From: a virus | Taxonomy: Duplodnaviria; Caudoviricetes | Length of the DNA stretch: 64,000 nucleotides | IMG/VR virus record: IMGVR_UViG_3300029288_000097 | Span: 49,977-113,976 of that record | Strand: one strand, 5' to 3' | Part shown: piece by piece, positions 45,196 to 63,137 of the stretch | Layout: every line of letters begins with the position of its first letter | Numbering within the stretch: the stretch's first letter is position 1 | Position numbers and translations under genes: made by a program | Notes under the pieces: model-generated | The model's database searches: none | What the model was told of the DNA's origin: nothing | The model's input: the letters and a program-made list of their open reading frames with translations, nothing else

Positions 45196-45392
45196 GTGCC
45201 TGGGTTTAGAGGTCTAAGTTTTTGTACTTCAGAGACATGATTATAGCTGATAGATTATAGCCCATAGTCCATAGCGTCTGAACCTAGCAGACTGGTATTT
45301 GTAACAGGCCAGGGTATGGGGGTTTGTCACAACCTGAACACATGTCTGACATATTCCCACACCCTGGTATTTATAACAGGTGCCTGGTAAAC

Positions 45393-55673: not shown

Positions 55674-55710
55674 ACAGTGATTTTCAGATTTTCGCACACA
55701 AGGAGTGAAC

Positions 55711-56943
55711 ATGAAGCCTACTATTCGTTCTCAGCCGGGCATTACGCCTACAGATCATACCCCACTTGCGCTCGCAGCCGTTGCGATCACTCAACTGTAT
55801 CGAGAAGAGCAGGACTGGCGAGCAGTCTACTACAGCATGAAACGTACCGAGTTATTATCTGCAGCTGCTACGGGACAATTCCTACCGCAGCCTACCGACC
55901 TCCAACAAAAACTCAACGACTTAATTGGTGGGGTCAGTGAAGCACACCTATACCTTCCCCGTTACGAGCATGATGAACCGACGCACTACGTCTCCATCAT
56001 TCGTGACCCGGACACACAACTATGGCGACTACGCCACACCAAAGTAAGGGCCGTTGCCGACCGAAAGTCATTTGGTGCCATGATCTACTGGAAACAGATC
56101 ACACCGATACCCGATGTCTGTATTGAACTTACACCCGCGCTCACCCCTGTCATCAAGGGTGCCGGAGCCTATGATGCTTTTGTATCCGCAGTCACAGGCC
56201 ACGACCTTGCCACTCAGCAACAACTTTCGCATTCCATCATCGTATCCAAGCTTTTCGGGGCTACCACTACTCATCGTTCACCTATCTGGTTCTCGAATGC
56301 CAGAAACCAGTTCACTGAAAACTGCACACGGGTATCATTCCTCGTGGACGAGAATACAGACGGCTGGACTCTACCTTTCGCGTTTGGGGCTCCGGCCATC
56401 CGCAAGGGGCTACCATTCTCCACCAAAAAGAATGTCTCCATAATCCACACGGACAAGGGCATATTCCCCTTTACCTCAAAGCTCCTACCAGTAGAACCAC
56501 ATAAACTTGGCGACCTTTCCTTCGTTCTTGAGCAATTACTCATCGCAGCCAGACTCACACCATTCGTAGGTGTCACACTCGACGGCCAGACCGTTCAGCT
56601 CTACACCGCATTCTACTATCTCGACACCGAAACCCCCGAGATCGTCCAGATTGCTAAGGGCAGGCGCATGTCCAATTGTGAGAGCATCCCGGTCATCAAG
56701 CCCTGGCAGAACTACAATGGCTACTGGATACCGACACTGCCTCTCACGGCCATCCTACATTACTACACTCTCCTGGATGACCGGGCTGCACGTGTGATGC
56801 CATACTTCGGTGCATCCAAGATCACATCCTACAACAAAATCTTCGGGCGTTATGGCATGCCGCTCGCAGCAGAGGAACTTGAAAAATTAGACAGCAATAC
56901 CGGTATTATTACCAGTTCCAATATAGTTCAGCCCGAGGTATAA
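55711..56943 (+). CDS. hypothetical protein (about 410 aa) next to the repeat array
   Basis: AAGGAG RBS before ATG 55711; no recognised motif. Confidence 0.7.
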   Translation: MKPTIRSQPGITPTDHTPLALAAVAITQLYREEQDWRAVYYSMKRTELLSAAATGQFLPQPTDLQQKLNDLIGGVSEAHLYLPRYEHDEPTHYVSIIRDPDTQLWRLRHTKVRAVADRKSFGAMIYWKQITPIPDVCIELTPALTPVIKGAGAYDAFVSAVTGHDLATQQQLSHSIIVSKLFGATTTHRSPIWFSNARNQFTENCTRVSFLVDENTDGWTLPFAFGAPAIRKGLPFSTKKNVSIIHTDKGIFPFTSKLLPVEPHKLGDLSFVLEQLLIAARLTPFVGVTLDGQTVQLYTAFYYLDTETPEIVQIAKGRRMSNCESIPVIKPWQNYNGYWIPTLPLTAILHYYTLLDDRAARVMPYFGASKITSYNKIFGRYGMPLAAEELEKLDSNTGIITSSNIVQPEV

Positions 56944-56944
56944 T
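56900..56944 (+). promoter_or_regulatory. box plus promoter
   Basis: CCGGTATTATTACCAG (56900-56915), 23 bp, TATAAT (56939-56944). Confidence 0.75.
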
Positions 56945-56966
56945 GAGCGTATGAAAAGGAGAAACA

Positions 56967-57512
56967 TTGATGCTTAAGGATTTTATTGCAGAGATAGTAA
57001 ACAACAACTCGGATTTCATCAAGAGTCAGATACTACGTGGAGTGGAACTTATCTCCATAAACAAAGATCATGAACTTATACTTGATGAATATATGGATTC
57101 CGCTGAAGAGTTTGCCGGGACCACAATGGAACGGGAAGACACTCTCGAACAGATCATAGACTTCCTGTATTCCAGTGCTGTGTGCAAACGGTTGACCACA
57201 CTTATTGCGCCACAGGTCAAGCTTGCTTTTGAGGCACAAGGTGAGAATGGTGAAGCTTTGTCCTATGTTTTACAGGATGTAGCGGCACAATTGATGGTCA
57301 TGGGCTATACACGAGAAATCATCGAGCTAGTTACTGACCACAATCTCATTGATTATCTGGAAGTAGATGAGCGTGAATATGATGCCTACAGAATGCAGGT
57401 TTCCGTTTTCTTGAAGGCTGTGTATCTGCACAATGCACCAATTCCAACAGCTAAGCTCTACTTTGTTTTACCTACGCCTGAAAGCATCGATACTGATGGG
57501 TGGTGGGTATGA
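56967..57512 (+). CDS. acidic hypothetical protein
   Basis: AAGGAG RBS. Confidence 0.7.
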   Translation: MMLKDFIAEIVNNNSDFIKSQILRGVELISINKDHELILDEYMDSAEEFAGTTMEREDTLEQIIDFLYSSAVCKRLTTLIAPQVKLAFEAQGENGEALSYVLQDVAAQLMVMGYTREIIELVTDHNLIDYLEVDEREYDAYRMQVSVFLKAVYLHNAPIPTAKLYFVLPTPESIDTDGWWV

Positions 57513-58096
57513 TACACAAACTCGGTATAACCATCGGCGAAGAGGAACACGTCCTCACACATGAGCATTTGCTCAACATGATGGGTGAAGCATATGAATG
57601 GATGGTTGCCAACATCAATACTTACGGCGAGTGGACGATGTACTTTGGATGGAATCCCGTGAAATCCGAGTTCACTGTTTACTCAGCTCTACCGAAGGGT
57701 TCATCCATAGAGTCTCTTGTAGCCATAACCACAGACTTGAAGGCTCCGATCCGCTGGGCCGGGACCATATTCAACGAGCTATGGGATCGTGAGTTTCCAC
57801 TGCACGTCAAAATGAAGTCGCTGCAGGCACAGTCTCAGACCTGTGGAGAACTGCTCGAATGGCTGCACGACACCAAGGGCATTTTGTTTGCCAAGTATCA
57901 TGAGCATACAGATGACTGCTATGACGAAGAAATATGTCCACCACTCTTCAAAGACTCCCGGCCACCATACTGCGGCATGTCCGATCAGATGGTATACCCG
58001 ATCAACACACAGGTGACCGACTTGCTGCACGAGTTCTTCGGCATTGACCGGAAGGCTTTTGATCGTGAGAAGCAGAGAATGTTGGACACACTATGA
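57509..58096 (+). CDS. hypothetical protein
   Basis: ATGA coupling; SQTCGELLEWL and LLHEFFGID..AFDREK motifs. Confidence 0.7.
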   Translation: MIHKLGITIGEEEHVLTHEHLLNMMGEAYEWMVANINTYGEWTMYFGWNPVKSEFTVYSALPKGSSIESLVAITTDLKAPIRWAGTIFNELWDREFPLHVKMKSLQAQSQTCGELLEWLHDTKGILFAKYHEHTDDCYDEEICPPLFKDSRPPYCGMSDQMVYPINTQVTDLLHEFFGIDRKAFDREKQRMLDTL

Positions 58097-58770
58097 TAAC
58101 ATTCAAGGCCAATATGGTAGCTATAGAGCTGACACGTAGGTGTAACATGGCATGTGGGCACTGTATGCGAGGTGATCCACAACCTATCGACCTTGACCCG
58201 GCATATCTTGGGCCGTTCTTTCGACAGATCGACTTCATAGATACATTGGTTTTGTCAGGTGGAGAACCATCACTGGTGCCGGAGATCATAACAGCTGTTA
58301 AGCAGGCACTTAACGATGCTTGCACCAAAGTCTATTCGCTTGAGATTGTAACGAATGGAAAGGTTGTATCTGTTCCGTTCATCAATGCACTTGCAACGTT
58401 GGATATAGCCTCCACTTATAATCTTGCCTATGGTGGGATATACCATGAAGAAGTTCCGAAAGTAAACATAAAAAGACTGAAGAACAATCTTTGCCCGAAG
58501 TGGACTGTGCATCCACAGGGCATTCATGGGAAGTTTTTAAGTAAGCAGGGTCGATCTAAGGAAGGCACGGAGCCGGACTTATATAGTCCATTTCTGATCT
58601 CGACATTACACTCGACCTATGTCACTGGACGACCAGTGTACCTGAATGCTGAGGGTTTTATAGTCCCGCATTGTGACTTATCATATGAGAACCAGGCCAA
58701 GCATATAATGTGCCGGGCTGATGAATCCATATTTGATGCTGTGGTGGCATTTAATACGAGGGTAGAGTAA
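58093..58770 (+). CDS. radical SAM protein
   Basis: IELTRRCNMACGHC (CxxxCxxC), SGGEPSL, VTNG. Confidence 0.85.
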   Translation: MITFKANMVAIELTRRCNMACGHCMRGDPQPIDLDPAYLGPFFRQIDFIDTLVLSGGEPSLVPEIITAVKQALNDACTKVYSLEIVTNGKVVSVPFINALATLDIASTYNLAYGGIYHEEVPKVNIKRLKNNLCPKWTVHPQGIHGKFLSKQGRSKEGTEPDLYSPFLISTLHSTYVTGRPVYLNAEGFIVPHCDLSYENQAKHIMCRADESIFDAVVAFNTRVE

Positions 58771-58792
58771 GATTGAAAGGAGCCATACCAGA

Positions 58793-59500
58793 ATGACAAC
58801 ATGTGAGTGCTGTGACAGCACACCGGAGTATTATATCCACTATGTTATTAAGCACGGGAGCTTTGAGGGTGGTGAAAAGAGATTCGTCAAACTCTCTTGT
58901 GCTGCACATTTGACCGAGGTGATAGCTTCGGCAGCGAATATGCAGGGTAAGCCCGCAGTCATAGTCGAAAGTATCGCCGGACGCGAGGAATGGAAGACAA
59001 GAGTATTTGCTCAACACTACGGTGGTAAGCCATCCTCGCTTAAACAGCTTGTTGTAGAAGATATAAACCCTGATCCAGAGACGATCAAGCCTGTCTTGAT
59101 TGTACGTTCAAAATGGGGTAGAATGTTCCATCTGCACACGGGCTTACAGCTTCGGTGGTGCAAGGAACGTGGGCCGGATGGTCGATCAACAGGCAAGCCG
59201 AGTAAGCACAGATTTGAGTTCGGGCAGTTTTTGCTTTCATTCAACAAGAACCGTGACCGTATGGAAACTTATGCTCGGGAGATCACAGTTGAGCAATCGC
59301 TGGAGTTACAACAATTGGATGCTGAGGCCGAAGTCTGTTACAAGCATACCAATATGCTCTGTAAGAAGCGCAACGATCTTCTTGCCACATGTTTCGAGAC
59401 CGGGCGACCGGTGCAAATGAATGAAATACTAACGCTATTGAAAGGAGAGATGGATGGACGAGATAATCACCAGGGAACAGGCGATTCAGGAGATCAGTGA
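58793..59500 (+). CDS. hypothetical protein
   Basis: AAGGAG RBS, 235 aa. Confidence 0.6.
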   Translation: MTTCECCDSTPEYYIHYVIKHGSFEGGEKRFVKLSCAAHLTEVIASAANMQGKPAVIVESIAGREEWKTRVFAQHYGGKPSSLKQLVVEDINPDPETIKPVLIVRSKWGRMFHLHTGLQLRWCKERGPDGRSTGKPSKHRFEFGQFLLSFNKNRDRMETYAREITVEQSLELQQLDAEAEVCYKHTNMLCKKRNDLLATCFETGRPVQMNEILTLLKGEMDGRDNHQGTGDSGDQ

Positions 59501-59714
59501 TAAGTTGGGCCGGACGCTTGATGAGGCCAAGGCTGTTTACGAGAAAGTCTATGACCTCATTGAAGCTACTCTCAAGGGCTCTGCTACAGTAATGGGCGAG
59601 CATGCGAAGATCGCTGCAGTTGTTTCGACAATGCAGATGAATGAGCTTCCGACCTTCATCTTCACGAAGACCTGTGCTCACTACAAGGCGTATTTCCTTG
59701 AGGTGCAGCTGTGA
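59454..59714 (+). CDS. hypothetical protein
   Basis: AAGGAG RBS. Confidence 0.6.
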   Translation: MDEIITREQAIQEISDKLGRTLDEAKAVYEKVYDLIEATLKGSATVMGEHAKIAAVVSTMQMNELPTFIFTKTCAHYKAYFLEVQL

Positions 59715-59902
59715 GGCGTGAAATGGAAAATCCTTATGCTGACATCCGAGTAGTCACCCAAAACATTCTTATGGAGCTTCAGGCCGTGAAGAATCGGAAT
59801 CGTGGGTGCCTGGACGAGGAGATGCGGACTGCTACAAAAGCCGTGCAAGCACTTTCTCGGGCCGCTGCTGATGCAGTGATACAAGGAGCACAGAACAAAT
59901 GA
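59711..59902 (+). CDS. hypothetical protein
   Basis: GTGA coupling; GAGG RBS. Confidence 0.45.
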   Translation: MRREMENPYADIRVVTQNILMELQAVKNRNRGCLDEEMRTATKAVQALSRAAADAVIQGAQNK

Positions 59903-60078
59903 GTAACGGTATCAAAAATCGTGGTTTTGCCAGTATGACTGAGGAACGACGAAAAGAGATTGCCCGGAATGGTGGTCGTGCTGTCCAGGCAAGAGGCACT
60001 GGGCACAGATGGGATAGTGATAAAGCTTCGGCTGCTGGCAAGAAGGGCCGGGCGAAGCAGTTGGAGACGGACAAGTGA
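59899..60078 (+). CDS. KGG-motif stress-induced protein (YciG/YmdF-like; not in the ORF track)
   Basis: MSNGIKNRGFASMTEERRKEIARNGGRAVQARGTGHRWDSDKASAAGKKG; AAGGAG RBS. Confidence 0.8.
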   Translation: MSNGIKNRGFASMTEERRKEIARNGGRAVQARGTGHRWDSDKASAAGKKGRAKQLETDK

Positions 60079-60332
60079 TGCAGTGTGATAGATGCCCTGC
60101 TCAATTCCAGGAGGGATATTATGAGCTTCCTCTTGACTTTGGAGAAGGTGTCAAGATAACTGTTAAGCAATTGCTCAACTTCAATATATGCCCACAGTGC
60201 TTTGCCTCTGATCTTCAGGATTGCATTGACAATGGTGATCCAAAGATACGTGACCAGATGCGTAAAGAACTGCGAGAAGGTATACTACCTAATAAGGTCT
60301 CTATCGGGTTTCATTATGAAGCTGGGAGATAA
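60078..60332 (+). CDS. CxxC-pair protein
   Basis: CDRC ... CPQC. Confidence 0.55.
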   Translation: MQCDRCPAQFQEGYYELPLDFGEGVKITVKQLLNFNICPQCFASDLQDCIDNGDPKIRDQMRKELREGILPNKVSIGFHYEAGR

Positions 60333-60507
60333 AGTCATCATACAGAAAAGAGTCTTGGATGACCTTAATAAGTGGCACGAGCCGGGGGAGGAGGCCACGG
60401 TTAAAGTGCATGCGGCAAGCAACGTGCAGGTTGAGTTTGCCGGATGTGTCTTTAACCGTGGCCGGGCTGTTTTAGACGTAAAATACGTGGAGGTGAAAGT
60501 TGGTTAA
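60316..60507 (+). CDS. small SH3/KOW-like hypothetical protein
   Basis: MKLGDKVII.. start; fills the gap. Confidence 0.45.
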   Translation: MKLGDKVIIQKRVLDDLNKWHEPGEEATVKVHAASNVQVEFAGCVFNRGRAVLDVKYVEVKVG

Positions 60508-60877
60508 ACAAACAAGTAGAGGGTTCAACTACATTGAGTTCACTGATAAAGCAGGGACACAATGCAACTTGCAGGAATCCAGCTCCGCTGAGGAGCCATC
60601 TATATGGCTTGGTGCCGAGAACATCGGGCTTAAAGAGTTCGTAGCATTTAGGGCACCATCGGCTTGGGAAGATAGACCTGAGTTCGATGAGTTTGATGAG
60701 AAGCATCACTTTGTGGCGAATAACCGCATGCATTTGAATCAGGAACAGGTCAAGGCTCTGTTGCCTTACCTACAGCGTTTCGTTGAGACAGGAGCGGTCT
60801 GTGAAGAAGGAAGTGAAGAAGATAACACCCCAGGACCGGACAATGCCGGTGAGTCCGTTTGTGGTTCCGGTTATTGA
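60500..60877 (+). CDS. conserved-looking phage hypothetical protein
   Basis: RGF.YIEF.D......LQESSSAEEPSIWLG, RMHLNQEQVKALLP.LQRFVETG; GGAGG RBS. Confidence 0.7.
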   Translation: MVKQTSRGFNYIEFTDKAGTQCNLQESSSAEEPSIWLGAENIGLKEFVAFRAPSAWEDRPEFDEFDEKHHFVANNRMHLNQEQVKALLPYLQRFVETGAVCEEGSEEDNTPGPDNAGESVCGSGY

Positions 60878-61127
60878 TTGGGGTAGTTTTCCACGGTCAG
60901 ATGTTCTTAAATACATAGCCTGCCACGGTCAATCACGTGTAAGGGTCGTATGCTGTGAGTGTCAATGCGAGCAGGACTTTTACCTGTGGTCTATGGCCGG
61001 GCATGGAGTAGGAAAGTGCAAGGGCTGTGGTGTAGCGATCTCATATCATGGGTATCATACGGTGCCTGCTGACCTCTATAATGAGGTTCACAAAGATCGC
61101 AAGAAAAAAATCACTAAAACCACTTGA
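60843..61127 (+). CDS. zinc-finger protein
   Basis: CCEC ... CKGC. Confidence 0.5.
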   Translation: MPVSPFVVPVIDWGSFPRSDVLKYIACHGQSRVRVVCCECQCEQDFYLWSMAGHGVGKCKGCGVAISYHGYHTVPADLYNEVHKDRKKKITKTT

Positions 61128-61152
61128 CACGGTAGTGATATGGTGTTATGAT
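61124..61152 (+). promoter_or_regulatory. strong sigma70-type promoter of the Y RNA/Ro60 operon
   Basis: TTGACA-17-TATGAT; predicted +1 coincides with the first RNA stem (about 61158). Confidence 0.8.
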
Positions 61153-61157
61153 ATGTT

Positions 61158-61291
61158 TGGTGGTGACCACGAGACGGTTACTTCGCTTTGGGAGCGCGTG
61201 GTCGCAGGTTCGAGTCCTGTTGGGGTCCACATGGACCCTATAGCTCAGTTGGTAGAGCGCGTAAACTTTCCGTCTCACCTTTATCCCACCA
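61158..61291 (+). ncRNA. YrlA-like Y RNA containing a circularly permuted tRNA-Pro(UGG)-like domain
   Basis: Outer stem TGGTGG/CCACCA, inner GAGACGG/CCGTCTC; anticodon arm CGC-TTTGGGA-GCG, T arm GCAGG-TTCGAGT-CCTGT, closed acceptor TGGGGTCC-acat-GGACCCTA, D arm GCTC-AGTTGGTA-GAGC; upstream of Ro60. Confidence 0.8.
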
Positions 61292-61304
61292 TTTATGTAA
61301 TTTT

Positions 61305-61418
61305 TGCCGGTGACCAGAAGAGGGTTACTTCGTCCAATTGGTAGGACATCAGTCTACTAAACTGAATGTTGCAGGTTCAAGTCCTGTAGTGTTATTCCCT
61401 CTTCAGCTTTTCCCGGCA
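61305..61418 (+). ncRNA. Y-RNA-like RNA with D, anticodon (ACT) and T arms; acceptor stem replaced by the scaffold stem
   Basis: TGCCGG/CCGGCA, GAAGAGGG/CCCTCTTC; GTCC-AATTGGTA-GGAC; TCAGT-CTACTAA-ACTGA; GCAGG-TTCAAGT-CCTGT. Confidence 0.75.
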
Positions 61419-61423
61419 TTATT

Positions 61424-61489
61424 TTTGCTGATGACCAGTGCAGAGCTACTTCGTGCATTTGAATACTCTGTTCAATTTAACTCAGCAAA
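61424..61489 (+). ncRNA. minimal Y-RNA-like module abutting the Ro60 RBS
   Basis: TTTGCTGA/TCAGCAAA and CAGAG/CTCTG stems with the same TGACCA and TACTTCG motifs as the two preceding RNAs. Confidence 0.6.
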
Positions 61490-61502
61490 GGATAGGAGAA
61501 AA

Positions 61503-62924
61503 ATGGCTAAGTTCAACACTGCACCTGTCGATAGGAGCAAAACCATCAACCGAGCTGGCGGTCCGGCTTATGCGAAGTCTACTAAGCTGGAACTTGTCAG
61601 CTTTTTGCTGACCTCATTTGTCAAGGATCAGTTCTACCGATCTGCGGATCAGGGATTGAAAGCCTTGACCAATCTGGTTGCAGACAATCCTCTGTTCGCA
61701 GCGAAGGCAGCGATCTATGCCCGGACTCAGTTCGGTATGCGTAGTGTATCGCATGCAGTTGCAGTCGATCTGATGGAGTTTGCAAAAGGCCATGCGTGGG
61801 CAAAGCGATTCTATGATCGCGTGATCTTTCGACCTGATGATATGACTGAGATTCGATCTCTGTATCAGACCAGGACCAAGAAGAATGGTTTGCCTCACGC
61901 AGTCAGCAAGGGCTTTGCTGCGGCCTTGACCAGGTTCGACGCTTATCAGCTTGGTAAGTATCGAGGTGAGGGCAAGGGCGTGTCTCTTGTAGACATCGTG
62001 AACTATGTTCACCCTCAGCATTCGGAAGCACTGCAGGCTCTTGTAAAAGATGAACTGCGGGCGACTGGCACCTGGGAGTCCAAGTTGACTCAGGCTGGGC
62101 AGCAGGGTAGTGATGAAGAGGAAGTCAAATCGCTCAAGCGTGATGCGTGGGCCGAGCTGATCTCTTCAAAGAAGTTGGGCTACTTTGCATTGCTGAGGAA
62201 CTTGCGAAACATCATCGAGCAGGCACCGGAGTGTGTAGACGCTGCATGTGCTATGCTTGTTGATGAGAAGCTGATTCGGAAGTCATTGGTTATGCCGTTC
62301 AGGTATCAGACTGCAGCTGATGAGATCAGGAAGTTGGGTGGTTCCAATACCCGTCCGGTTCTTAAGGCTCTGAATGAGGCCGTGGATAAGTCTGTAGCCA
62401 ATGTTCCGAGGTTTGATGGTCGAACTTTGATAGCGTTGGATGGAAGCGGATCGATGAGTGACGTTCTTGCAATCGCTACTCTGTTCGCCGCTGTGCTCTA
62501 TAAGTCTCAGGATGCAGACTGTATAATCTACAGTGATTCTGCGGAACAACATAGCTACACTGTCGAGGATTCGACTCTGACTATCGCTTCTCAGATGAGC
62601 AAGGACTGTCCTATGAGCAGCACTGATTTCAGTGCAGTATTCAGACTGATGACTGAGCCCTATGATCGGGTTATCTTTTTGTCTGACATGCAGTCCTGGG
62701 TAAATAGCCGGGGCATTCCGACTTACTTTAACAGGTATGTCGAGAAGATCGGTAAGAGACCGAAGCTATACTCTTGGGATTTGAGCGGGTATGGCACTCT
62801 GGAGTTCCCGGAGCGTGATGTTTACGCTCTGTCCGGCTTCTCAGAGAAGGTTTTTGATCTGATGAAGCTGCTCGAAACCGATAGAAATGCTATGGTGCAC
62901 GCTATTGAGGAAATAGAGCTGTGA
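61503..62924 (+). CDS. Ro60/Rsr-like TROVE-domain RNA-binding protein with C-terminal vWA domain
   Basis: NRAGGPAY, DQFY, YARTQFGMRS, FDAYQLGKY, TWE..L, MIDAS-like DGSGSM, ALLRNLRN, FLSDMQ, GFSEKVF; AGGAG RBS before ATG 61503. Confidence 0.92.
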   Translation: MAKFNTAPVDRSKTINRAGGPAYAKSTKLELVSFLLTSFVKDQFYRSADQGLKALTNLVADNPLFAAKAAIYARTQFGMRSVSHAVAVDLMEFAKGHAWAKRFYDRVIFRPDDMTEIRSLYQTRTKKNGLPHAVSKGFAAALTRFDAYQLGKYRGEGKGVSLVDIVNYVHPQHSEALQALVKDELRATGTWESKLTQAGQQGSDEEEVKSLKRDAWAELISSKKLGYFALLRNLRNIIEQAPECVDAACAMLVDEKLIRKSLVMPFRYQTAADEIRKLGGSNTRPVLKALNEAVDKSVANVPRFDGRTLIALDGSGSMSDVLAIATLFAAVLYKSQDADCIIYSDSAEQHSYTVEDSTLTIASQMSKDCPMSSTDFSAVFRLMTEPYDRVIFLSDMQSWVNSRGIPTYFNRYVEKIGKRPKLYSWDLSGYGTLEFPERDVYALSGFSEKVFDLMKLLETDRNAMVHAIEEIEL

Positions 62925-63091
62925 GCAACCATAAAAACAACAAGGCCGTCGAGGAAGACACACGCTTGACGGCCTATGTTCCACCCCAAGACTACCGTAA
63001 ACTCCGCATAAGCCTAATCAAGCACGGCATGAGTGTATCTGAGTGGGCACGACAGATGATCCACAGATGGTTTCAAGAGCACGATGAATAA
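62921..63091 (+). CDS. 56-aa ribbon-helix-helix-like protein (not in the ORF track)
   Basis: RLTAYV-PPQDYRKLRISLIKHG-MSVSEWARQMIHRW; GTGA overlap with the Ro60 stop; GAGG RBS. Confidence 0.55.
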   Translation: MSNHKNNKAVEEDTRLTAYVPPQDYRKLRISLIKHGMSVSEWARQMIHRWFQEHDE

Positions 63092-63137
63092 CTGGTATTT
63101 TTGCCAGTTGTTTTTTGCCTCTAGGCTGAGCTATACT
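63092..63137 (+). promoter_or_regulatory. box plus promoter
   Basis: CTGGTATTTTTGCCAG (63092-63107), 24 bp, TATACT (63132-63137). Confidence 0.7.

What the first reader, a model, noticed from the sequence alone, without database searches (positions are those of the whole stretch)
61158..62924. Three tandem RNAs share one scaffold but carry different tRNA-like cargo upstream of phage Ro60
Seen: each module reads outer stem, TGACCA, inner stem, YTACTTCG, cargo, inner stem', pyrimidine-rich bulge, outer stem'. The stem sequences differ between modules yet pair in each, which is internal covariation. Cargo 1 is a permuted tRNA-Pro. Cargo 2 has D, anticodon (ACT) and T arms in normal order with the scaffold replacing the acceptor. 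Cargo 3 is a short loop. Short AT-rich spacers separate the modules and one TTGACA-17-TATGAT promoter drives all. Known: Y RNAs tether Ro60 to effectors such as PNPase. Inference: a modular Ro60 RNP system in which interchangeable RNAs present different tRNA surfaces, possibly to counter tRNA-targeting defence.
Basis: partly seen in the sequence, partly recalled or inferred. Interest (0 to 1): 0.85.

Follow-up and report, generated by a model that had tools for sequence, protein, structure and literature searches.

The report
Phage Ro60 with three tRNA-mimic Y RNAs
An uncultured 114-kb phage encodes, in front of its Ro60 RNA-binding ring protein, three small partner RNAs (Y RNAs) that share one docking handle; two of them display a whole tRNA look-alike with its anticodon loop, a form of Y RNA that I did not find described in print.

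Summary
Three tandem modules lie between a near-consensus promoter and a TROVE/Ro60 gene: 61159-61290, 61305-61418 and 61424-61489, + strand. A covariance model built only from other loci finds all three (36, 23 and 18 bits; next best 6). The same handle occurs 128 times in 66 of 73 viral Ro60 loci, always on the Ro60 strand. It gave no hit in 655 kb of control viral DNA.

- **Module 1** is a complete circularly permuted tRNA-Pro(UGG) mimic. Its chain ends sit inside the anticodon stem, between nt 28 and 29, and covariation not used in selecting the sequences supports this.
- **Module 2** is a normally ordered tRNA body (anticodon ACU) with the handle in place of the acceptor end. About 15 other loci carry this type.
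- **Module 3** is a YrlB-like hairpin.

These are Y RNAs, a diverged branch of the known YrlA/YrlB/Yrn1 kind, not a new system. Tandem Y RNAs beside bacterial and phage Ro60 are published. The intact anticodon loops, shown in two topologies in one operon, are the new element.

The proposed anti-tRNase role is untested; one preprint links a phage Ro60-like protein to counter-defence. This scan has reported the same handle and design on other DNA.

The parts
61124..61152 (+). Sigma-70-type promoter TTGACA-17-TATGAT with TGn. The predicted start, near 61159, coincides with the first base of module 1.
   Evidence: 11 of 12 matches, TG before the -10 hexamer. It is the only strong site between 60500 and 63100. 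The start position is inferred.
61159..61290 (+). Y RNA module 1: the handle plus a complete circularly permuted tRNA-Pro(UGG) mimic. Order: anticodon hairpin, variable loop, T arm, closed 7-bp acceptor hairpin, D arm. The chain ends lie between tRNA positions 28 and 29.
   Evidence: Rfam YrlA 41.4 bits, E 9e-8. Model R1 23.3 bits. Covariation of pairs 27-43 and 28-42 across 28 relatives. The rejoined sequence is called tRNA-Pro(tgg) by ARAGORN.
61305..61418 (+). Y RNA module 2: the handle plus a normally ordered class I tRNA body. It has a D arm, a 5-bp anticodon stem with the 7-nt loop CUACUAA, a 5-nt variable loop and a T arm. Only 3 bp of acceptor stem remain, and the handle takes the place of the acceptor end.
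   Evidence: Rfam tRNA 48 bits over model positions 5-66. ARAGORN reads anticodon ACT. Model R1 36.1 bits. The minimum-energy fold equals the centroid and shows handle plus cloverleaf, z -3.6. The same design occurs in about 15 other loci.
61424..61489 (+). Y RNA module 3: the handle closed by a short hairpin (YrlB-like). It ends 13 nt before the Ro60 start codon, just ahead of the AGGAG ribosome-binding site.
   Evidence: Model R1 17.6 bits, E 0.0045 with filters off. Fold. Sequence.
61503..62924 (+). Ro60 / TROVE plus vWA protein gene, 473 aa.
   Evidence: Pfam TROVE E 3.7e-15 and a weak vWA_Ro60 match. phrog_850 E 8.8e-41. Best solved relative is Thermus phage phiLo Ro60, 9L5Y/9KOP, E 2.3e-11; also Xenopus, human and D. 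radiodurans Ro60.
62921..63091 (+). 56-aa ORF whose GTG start overlaps the Ro60 stop codon (GTGA), so it is probably translationally coupled. Possibly a ribbon-helix-helix protein.
   Evidence: ORF list. Weak NikA-like match, E 0.0016, below the curated cut-off.
63086..63116 (+). Terminator-like hairpin followed by a U run; the likely end of the operon.
   Evidence: Fold -13.9 kcal/mol, z -4.2. The consensus terminator scan did not list it.

Best explanation
The region is a phage Ro60-Y RNA operon. One promoter most likely transcribes three Y RNAs, the Ro60 gene and a small coupled ORF.

The precursor is probably cut in the AU-rich spacers into RNAs of about 132, 114 and 66 nt.

Each RNA carries the same docking handle:
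- an outer stem;
- a short helix with fixed pyrimidine mismatches (GACCA here, AGYGA in most relatives);
- an 8-bp inner stem;
- the invariant UUACUUCG.

The handle is inferred to bind the phage Ro60 ring.

The variable cargo is the effector side. Module 1 shows a whole L-shaped tRNA-Pro mimic with a sealed acceptor end and a free anticodon loop. Module 2 shows a tRNA body with a free anticodon arm but no acceptor end. Module 3 is a plain hairpin.

By analogy with D. radiodurans, Salmonella and Thermus phage phiLo, these RNAs would tether Ro60 to host tRNA- or RNA-binding proteins such as PNPase, and gate the ring.

Shown here: the sequences, the folds, the covariation and the genomic linkage to Ro60. 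Inferred: transcription as one unit, processing, Ro60 binding and the partner proteins.
For: - The Ro60 identity of the gene is firm.
- An independent covariance model finds exactly the three modules in the window.
- The same model gives 128 hits in 66 of 73 viral Ro60 loci. All are on the Ro60 strand, and nearly all lie within about 1 kb upstream of the gene.
- It gives 0 hits in 655 kb of viral DNA chosen only for carrying the bare motif.
- In the three whole bacterial genomes with any hit (14.4 Mb), 7 of 8 hits lie inside the Ro60 locus. Two further genomes gave none.
- Module 1 matches Rfam YrlA at E 9e-8.
- The handle stems covary. That set was chosen for pairing, so the control matters more: the mismatch helix and pairs 27-43 and 28-42 were not used in selection and also covary.
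- The 5' internal-loop motif is more alike within a locus than between loci, while the stems differ. Mismatch fraction is 0.32 within versus 0.63 between, and 0 of 2000 permutations reach this. This fits co-evolution with each locus's Ro60.
- Both tRNA-like bodies keep the Levitt pair in its two covarying forms: G15:C48 in module 1 and A15:U48 in module 2 (read).
- Published precedent: multiple Y RNAs cut from a single precursor upstream of rsr (PMC4201824), and phage phiLo Yrl1 and Yrl2 binding Ro60 and PNPase (PMC12135203).
Against: - There is no expression, processing or binding evidence.
- The published Ro60-binding motif GNCGAAN0-1G is absent; UUACUUCG sits at its aligned position.
- The Rfam YrlA score of 41.4 bits is below the curated threshold of 69.
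- The window's handle variant TGACCA occurs in no other of 184 loci.
- The nearest Ro60 is only about 53% identical, so orthologous conservation of each single module cannot be checked.
- The effector proteins are unknown.
Confidence: 0.85

Rival explanations
1. One reading: the Ro60-bound tRNA mimics act as decoys, competitive inhibitors or sensors for host tRNA-targeting defences. These would include anticodon nucleases such as PrrC, RloC, colicin-type enzymes or PARIS, or another defence system. On this reading the operon is a counter-defence module. This is a claim about purpose and can hold together with the Y RNA reading.
For: - Both tRNA-like modules keep canonical 7-nt anticodon loops with U33 and a purine at position 37. 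The acceptor end is sealed or absent, so they could be recognised but not used in translation.
- Anticodon triplets differ widely among relatives while the loop shape is kept.
- A phage Ro60-like protein, Bas63 gp130, was found experimentally to counter the Ppl defence system and sits next to tRNA genes (PMC11482910).
- YrlA was proposed as a competitive inhibitor of an anticodon nuclease (PMC7790460).
Against: - Nothing was tested here.
- Mimics with Ser- and Leu-type anticodons, including the window's ACU, have short variable loops, so they are not faithful copies of those tRNAs.
- The anticodons show no evident enrichment for known nuclease targets.
- The same RNA design occurs in bacterial chromosomes, where a phage counter-defence role does not apply.
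- The phage has no RNA repair genes.
Confidence: 0.2
2. Modules 1 and 2 are working tRNA genes: a permuted tRNA-Pro gene matured through cleavage and CCA addition, and a tRNA-Ser(ACU) as ARAGORN calls it. On this reading they supply decoding capacity and are not Ro60 partners.
For: - ARAGORN calls module 2 a tRNA, and the Rfam tRNA score is above threshold.
- Module 1 has a full 7-bp acceptor stem. M. smegmatis YrlA with such a stem is cut by RNase P and receives CCA in vivo (PMC4201824).
Against: - ARAGORN's acceptor stem for module 2 has only two Watson-Crick pairs. The competing 8-bp and 5-bp handle stems are perfect.
- The Rfam match covers only positions 5-66.
- A Ser tRNA needs a long variable arm, but this one has 5 nt.
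- Module 1's acceptor is closed by a loop and lacks an encoded CCA.
- The handle, with its Ro60 linkage, would serve no purpose in a tRNA gene.
- The phage's genuine tRNAs (Asn, Gln) lie elsewhere and score 57-67 bits over the full model.
Confidence: 0.05
3. The array, or at least module 3, is mainly a cis-acting leader. On this reading Ro60 binds its own 5' untranslated region next to the ribosome-binding site and sets its own translation, and the modules are not free-standing RNAs.
For: - Module 3 ends 13 nt before the start codon, directly ahead of AGGAG.
- In most relatives the last module also abuts the Ro60 start.
- No terminator was found between the modules and the gene.
Against: - In some loci the modules lie downstream of Ro60, for example L047 and the Hymenobacter-type loci.
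- Published Y RNAs encoded upstream of rsr accumulate as discrete RNAs.
- A leader role would not explain the tRNA-like cargo.
Confidence: 0.1
4. The tRNA-like pieces are relics of tRNA genes, such as an integration site (attP) or decayed tRNA genes, that happen to lie by the Ro60 gene.
For: Phage attachment sites often copy the 3' part of a tRNA gene. Module 1 does begin with a tRNA 3' part.
Against: - There is no tyrosine integrase in the complete genome.
- Both halves of the tRNA are present in a conserved rotated order across 28 loci, with compensatory changes.
- Every copy is framed by the conserved handle.
- The tRNA core nucleotides are intact, not decayed.
Confidence: 0.02

Closest known systems
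YrlA / YrlB Y RNAs of bacterial and mycobacteriophage Ro60 (Rsr) loci (Rfam RF02553; Chen et al. 2014, PMC4201824; Wang et al. 2018, 10.1101/312249)
   Same: - Encoded beside Ro60 on the same strand, several per locus, and cut from a single precursor in M. smegmatis.
- The 5' and 3' ends form the protein-binding stem.
- One RNA carries T arm, closed acceptor hairpin and D arm in rotated order.
- Another RNA is a plain hairpin.
- Module 1 aligns to RF02553 end to end.
   Different: - Published YrlA 'lacks the anticodon loop': its anticodon stem runs on into the Ro60-binding stem.
- Here, and in at least 27 relatives, a 3-bp stem with a 7-nt anticodon-type loop stacks on pairs 27-43 and 28-42, so the whole tRNA is present.
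- UUACUUCG replaces the GNCGAAN0-1G motif.
- The score is below the Rfam threshold.
- Chen et al. noted a 'fourth stem-loop upstream of T' and read it as a variable arm. Here the strand that pairs with 27-28 follows that hairpin, and that order does not fit a variable arm.
Deinococcus radiodurans Yrn1 (Chen et al. 2013 and 2014)
   Same: Same order as module 2: D-like region, then an 'anticodon arm' with a 5-bp stem, then the T arm. The RNA ends sit in the Ro60-binding stem, where the acceptor stem would be.
   Different: Yrn1 has only partial D-loop features, a 6-nt loop and no variable region. Module 2 is a near-perfect class I tRNA body: 48 bits on the tRNA model, a 7-nt loop, U8, A14, G18-G19, the TΨC sequence and an A15:U48 pair.
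Thermus phage phiLo Ro60 with Yrl1 and Yrl2 (NAR 2025, PMC12135203; PDB 9KOP, 9L5Y)
   Same: - A phage Ro60 with Y-like RNAs encoded just upstream.
- It is the closest solved relative of the window's protein.
- Ro60-RNA and Ro60-RNA-PNPase complexes were shown in vitro.
   Different: - The phiLo RNAs were picked by a CGAA motif in a large internal bulge and are not described as tRNA mimics.
- There are two RNAs, not three.
- The protein similarity is distant (E 2e-11).
Bas63 gp130, a Ro60-like protein that counters the Ppl defence system (PhageMaP preprint, PMC11482910)
   Same: A phage Ro60-type protein beside tRNA-like genes, with the only experimental phenotype for such a protein that I found.
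   Different: - Similarity to Ro60 is by predicted fold only.
- Its partner RNAs are not defined.
- The defence system it counters is not known to target tRNA.
- Its relation to the window's protein was not tested here.
Circularly permuted tRNA genes of Cyanidioschyzon merolae (from my own knowledge)
   Same: The tRNA 3' half is encoded before the 5' half.
   Different: Those genes are matured into normal tRNAs through a circular intermediate. Here the acceptor end is sealed, and the ends are clamped by a protein-binding handle inside the anticodon stem.

Membership tests
Bacterial/phage Y RNA (Ro60 partner RNA) | Encoded next to a Ro60/TROVE gene on the same strand | tested here: met
   The modules lie 13-344 nt upstream of a TROVE gene. 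The family gives 128 of 128 hits on the Ro60 strand in 66 of 73 viral loci. In whole bacterial genomes, 7 of 8 hits lie in the Ro60 locus.
Bacterial/phage Y RNA (Ro60 partner RNA) | The 5' and 3' ends pair into a long stem holding a conserved bulged or mismatched helix | tested here: met
   Outer and inner stems pair in all three modules and covary in 28 relatives (that set was selected for pairing). The mismatch helix was not used in selection and shows AU/GC and GC/CG/UA exchanges around a position that never pairs.
Bacterial/phage Y RNA (Ro60 partner RNA) | Conserved 5'-strand motif GNCGAAN0-1G (bacteria) or GGUCCGA (animals) that Ro60 contacts | tested here: not met
   In the Rfam YrlA alignment the motif position is filled by GGUUACUUCG. 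UUACUUCG is invariant in the family. The sequence differs while the position is the same.
Bacterial/phage Y RNA (Ro60 partner RNA) | Physical binding to Ro60, and dependence on it for accumulation | not testable with these tools
   Needs a pull-down or gel-shift assay. The only indirect hint is that the handle motif tracks the locus.
YrlA (Rfam RF02553) | Score at or above the curated gathering threshold of 69 bits | tested here: not met
   Module 1 scores 41.4 bits, E 9e-8, over the full model length. Relatives score 34-42 bits.
YrlA (Rfam RF02553) | T arm, closed acceptor hairpin and D arm in rotated order; no anticodon loop | tested here: inconclusive
   The rotated order and closed acceptor are met. 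However, an anticodon hairpin is present, which published YrlA lacks.
tRNA (module 2) | Cloverleaf core with D, anticodon and T arms and the invariant core nucleotides | tested here: met
   Rfam tRNA 48 bits against a threshold of 29. U8, A14, G18-G19, U33, GTTC and the A15:U48 pair are read.
tRNA (module 2) | A 7-bp acceptor stem with a free 3' end | tested here: not met
   The Rfam match covers only positions 5-66. ARAGORN's acceptor stem has 2 Watson-Crick pairs, 3 G-U pairs and 2 mismatches. The same bases form the perfect 8-bp handle stem.
tRNA-Ser (ARAGORN's label for module 2) | Long variable arm (class II tRNA) | tested here: not met
   The variable loop is 5 nt, AUGUU.
Anti-defence tRNA decoy | Protects phage or tRNA from a tRNA-targeting system | not testable with these tools
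   There is only circumstantial support.

The most novel reading that the evidence does not exclude
This clade of phage and bacterial Ro60 partner RNAs is a 'tRNA display' system. One protein-docking handle presents entire tRNA mimics, anticodon loop included, in two complementary ways: handle on the anticodon stem with a sealed acceptor end, or handle in place of the acceptor end. Anticodon-reading host factors, such as anticodon nucleases or position-37 modification enzymes, would then be captured, inhibited or sensed by the Ro60 particle. In phages this would be a programmable counter-defence whose specificity is set by swapping cargo.
Probability: 0.2. Interest if true: 0.85.

Novelty: new variant of a known kind. 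Interest (0 to 1): 0.6.

Why it matters
What the tRNA-like part of bacterial Y RNAs binds is a long-standing open question. Published YrlA lacks an anticodon loop, so work has focused on the tRNA elbow.

This phage, and a large uncatalogued clade around it, keeps the whole tRNA, with a canonical anticodon loop whose triplet varies freely. It shows that tRNA in two different attachments to the same Ro60 handle within one three-RNA operon. That narrows the search for partners to proteins that read the anticodon arm, and it gives a compact construct of about 2 kb to test this.

It also shows that the Rfam YrlA model misses most of this clade. Many phage 'tRNA' calls next to Ro60 genes, such as tRNA-Ser(ACT) here, are probably Y RNAs.

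Tried and rejected
- **Close relatives.** DNA similarity to deposited phages found only short tRNA-like matches. Protein-based searches of viral, metagenome and genome collections found no Ro60 above about 53% identity. The test 'module 2 is a decayed tRNA in close relatives' therefore cannot be run.
- **Handle variant TGACCA.** An exact scan for module 2's handle found nothing. A looser motif scan returned only single chance matches, none confirmed by the model. That set then served as a negative control.
- **RNA-repair context.** The genome has no RtcB, Rnl2-type ligase or CCA-adding enzyme.
- **attP idea.** There is no tyrosine integrase.
- **Own-genome search with the model.** The genome search returned nothing. 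Its first-look step misses hits with large inserts, and the direct cmsearch does find the modules, so I disregard it.
- **My motif-and-stem finder.** It gave one extra call at 45204-45339 that the covariance model does not support. I rejected it as chance.
- **Long-cargo class as RNase P-like RNA.** I considered this because of an AAAGTCCGG block. There was no Rfam hit, and the partner strand for a P4 helix is missing. Rejected.
- **Papers not held.** Burroughs and Aravind 2016 and two Wolin reviews could not be read.
Full report
**Setting.** The window is the last 64 kb of a 113,976-bp IMG/VR virus record that CheckV rates as complete. The ORF 61503-62924 is a Ro60 protein:
- Pfam TROVE at E 3.7e-15, with a weak Ro60-type vWA match;
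- phrog_850 'RNA-binding protein' at E 8.8e-41;
- solved relatives led by Thermus phage phiLo Ro60 (9L5Y/9KOP, E 2.3e-11), then Xenopus, human and D. radiodurans Ro60.

A 56-aa ORF overlaps the Ro60 stop codon (GTGA). A hairpin with a U run follows at 63086-63116. The only strong promoter-like site is TTGACA-17-TATGAT with TGn at 61124-61152. Its expected start, near 61159, is the first base of module 1.

The stem sequences all differ and all pair.

I tested this without circularity. I built covariance model R1 from 27 short-cargo modules of other loci, with no window sequence.
- R1 finds the three window modules at 36.1, 23.3 and 17.6 bits. The next best hit in 6 kb scores 6.4 bits.
- With default filters, only modules 2 and 1 reach E<=10 in the whole 64 kb, on either strand.

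**The handle is a Ro60-linked family.**
- The window's Ro60 has relatives at 40-53% identity in 73 viral contigs, 26 metagenome contigs and 79 genomes.
- R1 gives 128 hits in 66 of the 73 viral loci. All are on the Ro60 strand, and nearly all lie within about 1 kb upstream of the gene, in arrays of two to six.
- R1 gives no hit in 655 kb of viral DNA that merely contains TGACCA-N8-TTACTTCG.
- In the three whole bacterial genomes with any hit (14.4 Mb), 7 of 8 hits lie in the Ro60 locus. Two more genomes, with more diverged handles, gave none.
- The two 'bulges' are really a short helix. In 28 short modules the flanking pairs switch between A-U and G-C, or among G-C, C-G and U-A. The central position never pairs in any of the 28, and three extra bases sit on the 3' side. 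None of this was used to pick the modules.
- The window's GACCA version has two mismatches and is found in no other of 184 loci. This explains its modest scores.
- The loop motif is more alike within a locus than between loci, while the stems differ (mismatch fraction 0.32 versus 0.63; 0 of 2000 permutations). This fits a contact surface that follows each locus's own Ro60. Recent duplication could add to this signal.

**Module 1.** Rfam YrlA aligns to it end to end at 41.4 bits, E 9e-8, below the curated 69 bits. A first-reader note on this window led me to check for an anticodon arm.
- In 28 relatives, the CG of UUACUUCG plus one base pairs with three bases after a 7-nt loop.
- The next two bases pair with the two bases that follow the D arm and position 26.
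- Those last two pairs were not part of my selection. They are 98% paired, with four pair types each: A-U 19, G-C 4, C-G 3, U-A 1; and G-C 18, C-G 6, A-U 2, U-A 2.
- The RNA is therefore a complete tRNA whose chain ends lie between positions 28 and 29 of the anticodon stem, with the handle attached there.
- In the window the loop is UUUGGGA: anticodon UGG with G37.
- The acceptor stem has 7 bp and is closed by a small loop.
- Rejoined in silico, the sequence is called tRNA-Pro(tgg) by ARAGORN.

Published YrlA 'lacks the anticodon loop'. Chen et al. noted a 'fourth stem-loop upstream of T' and read it as a variable arm. In this clade the strand that pairs with 27-28 follows the hairpin, and a separate 4-5-nt variable loop comes after it. 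That order does not fit a variable arm.

**Module 2.** The Rfam tRNA model matches positions 5-66 at 48 bits. ARAGORN labels it tRNA-Ser(ACT).
- It is a near-perfect class I tRNA body: D arm, anticodon stem UCAGU/ACUGA with loop CUACUAA, a 5-nt variable loop and a T arm.
- It keeps U8, A14, G18-G19 and an A15:U48 pair. Module 1 has G15:C48.
- It is not a tRNA gene. ARAGORN's acceptor stem has only two Watson-Crick pairs. The same bases form the perfect 8-bp inner stem and 5-bp outer stem of the handle, which is both the minimum-energy and the centroid fold (z -3.6). A Ser tRNA would also need a long variable arm.
- The same normal-order design follows the handle motif within a few bases in about 15 other loci, from phages, Verrucomicrobiota and Acidobacteriota. 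Examples are L001 (Rfam tRNA 47 bits), L053, L080, L132, L150 and L160.
- The loops start with U33-type turns but carry different triplets.
- This order is that of D. radiodurans Yrn1, which has only a partial D arm and a 6-nt loop.

**Module 3.** This is the handle closed by a short hairpin, like YrlB or Yrn2. It ends 13 nt before the Ro60 start codon.

**What it most likely does.** These are Y RNAs of an uncatalogued, diverged branch. The most likely course is:
1. one transcript from the promoter;
2. cuts in the AU-rich spacers, as for M. smegmatis YrlA and YrlB;
3. handle binding to the phage Ro60;
4. cargo recruiting host proteins.

PNPase is the documented partner in D. radiodurans, Salmonella and phage phiLo. 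All of these steps are inferred.

The phage has no RtcB, Rnl2-type ligase, CCA-adding enzyme or tyrosine integrase. It therefore depends on host factors, and the tRNA pieces are not an attachment site.

The counter-defence idea remains open.
- In its favour: intact anticodon loops on molecules that cannot be charged; a published suggestion that YrlA inhibits an anticodon nuclease; and a Ro60-like phage protein that counters the Ppl system.
- Against it: the design also occurs in bacterial chromosomes; the Ser- and Leu-type mimics have short variable loops; and no test was possible.

**Novelty and limits.** I found no paper describing anticodon-bearing Y RNAs or this handle. Several key reviews, and the supplements of Chen et al., were not available.

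Earlier notes of this scan report the same handle and the same 'opened inside the anticodon stem' design on other DNA. This window is therefore one more member, not a first sighting.

Noticed in passing
L017:2199-2419, L012:2146-2416, L024:2182-2436 and about 20 more viral Ro60 loci (alignment A5): In these loci the module next to Ro60 carries a 160-220-nt insert on the same handle. The insert has conserved blocks (for example GGTGAAAAAGTCCGGA and GAGTGAGATGGTCAC) and a few covarying hairpins. It has no Rfam match and no tRNA features, so it is an unexplained fourth cargo class.
   Followed up: partly
L004:1067-1574 (own genome, G000:C1:21674-22181) and G000:C1:25996-26067: ARAGORN calls a 427-nt tmRNA with a 31-residue tag ending in LLAA, directly before a genuine tRNA-Asn(GTT). 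A tRNA-Gln(TTG) lies 4 kb further on. The tmRNA call was not checked with Rfam.
   Followed up: no
window 62921-63116: A 56-aa ORF is coupled to the Ro60 stop codon (GTGA overlap) and has a weak ribbon-helix-helix / NikA-like match (E 0.0016). A 12-bp hairpin with a U run follows. It may be a regulator co-expressed with Ro60.
   Followed up: partly
L053:1738-2461; L044:1730-2468: Up to six tandem handle modules lie in front of one phage Ro60 gene. In L053 they mix a normal-order tRNA mimic, three permuted mimics (one with an extra hairpin after the D arm) and two hairpins.
   Followed up: partly
alignment A4, columns 33-39 (anticodon-type loops of 28 permuted modules): Most loops end in either U-A-A or G-G-A at positions 36-38. 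From my own knowledge, these are the contexts of t6A37 and m1G37 in real tRNAs. The window has one of each: module 2 ends in UAA and module 1 in GGA. This may reflect relatedness and not selection; no statistical test was done.
   Followed up: no
window 58093-58770: This ORF has a weak radical-SAM match (phrog_1802, E 1.7e-7), 2.4 kb upstream of the Y RNA array. The other neighbours 55705-61127 have no family match, except phrog_3849 (unknown function) at 60500-60877.
   Followed up: no
window 45204-45339: My motif-and-stem script called a fourth 'module' here. The covariance model gives no hit, so it is a chance match. It lies in the palindrome-cassette region that other notes of the scan describe.
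   Followed up: yes
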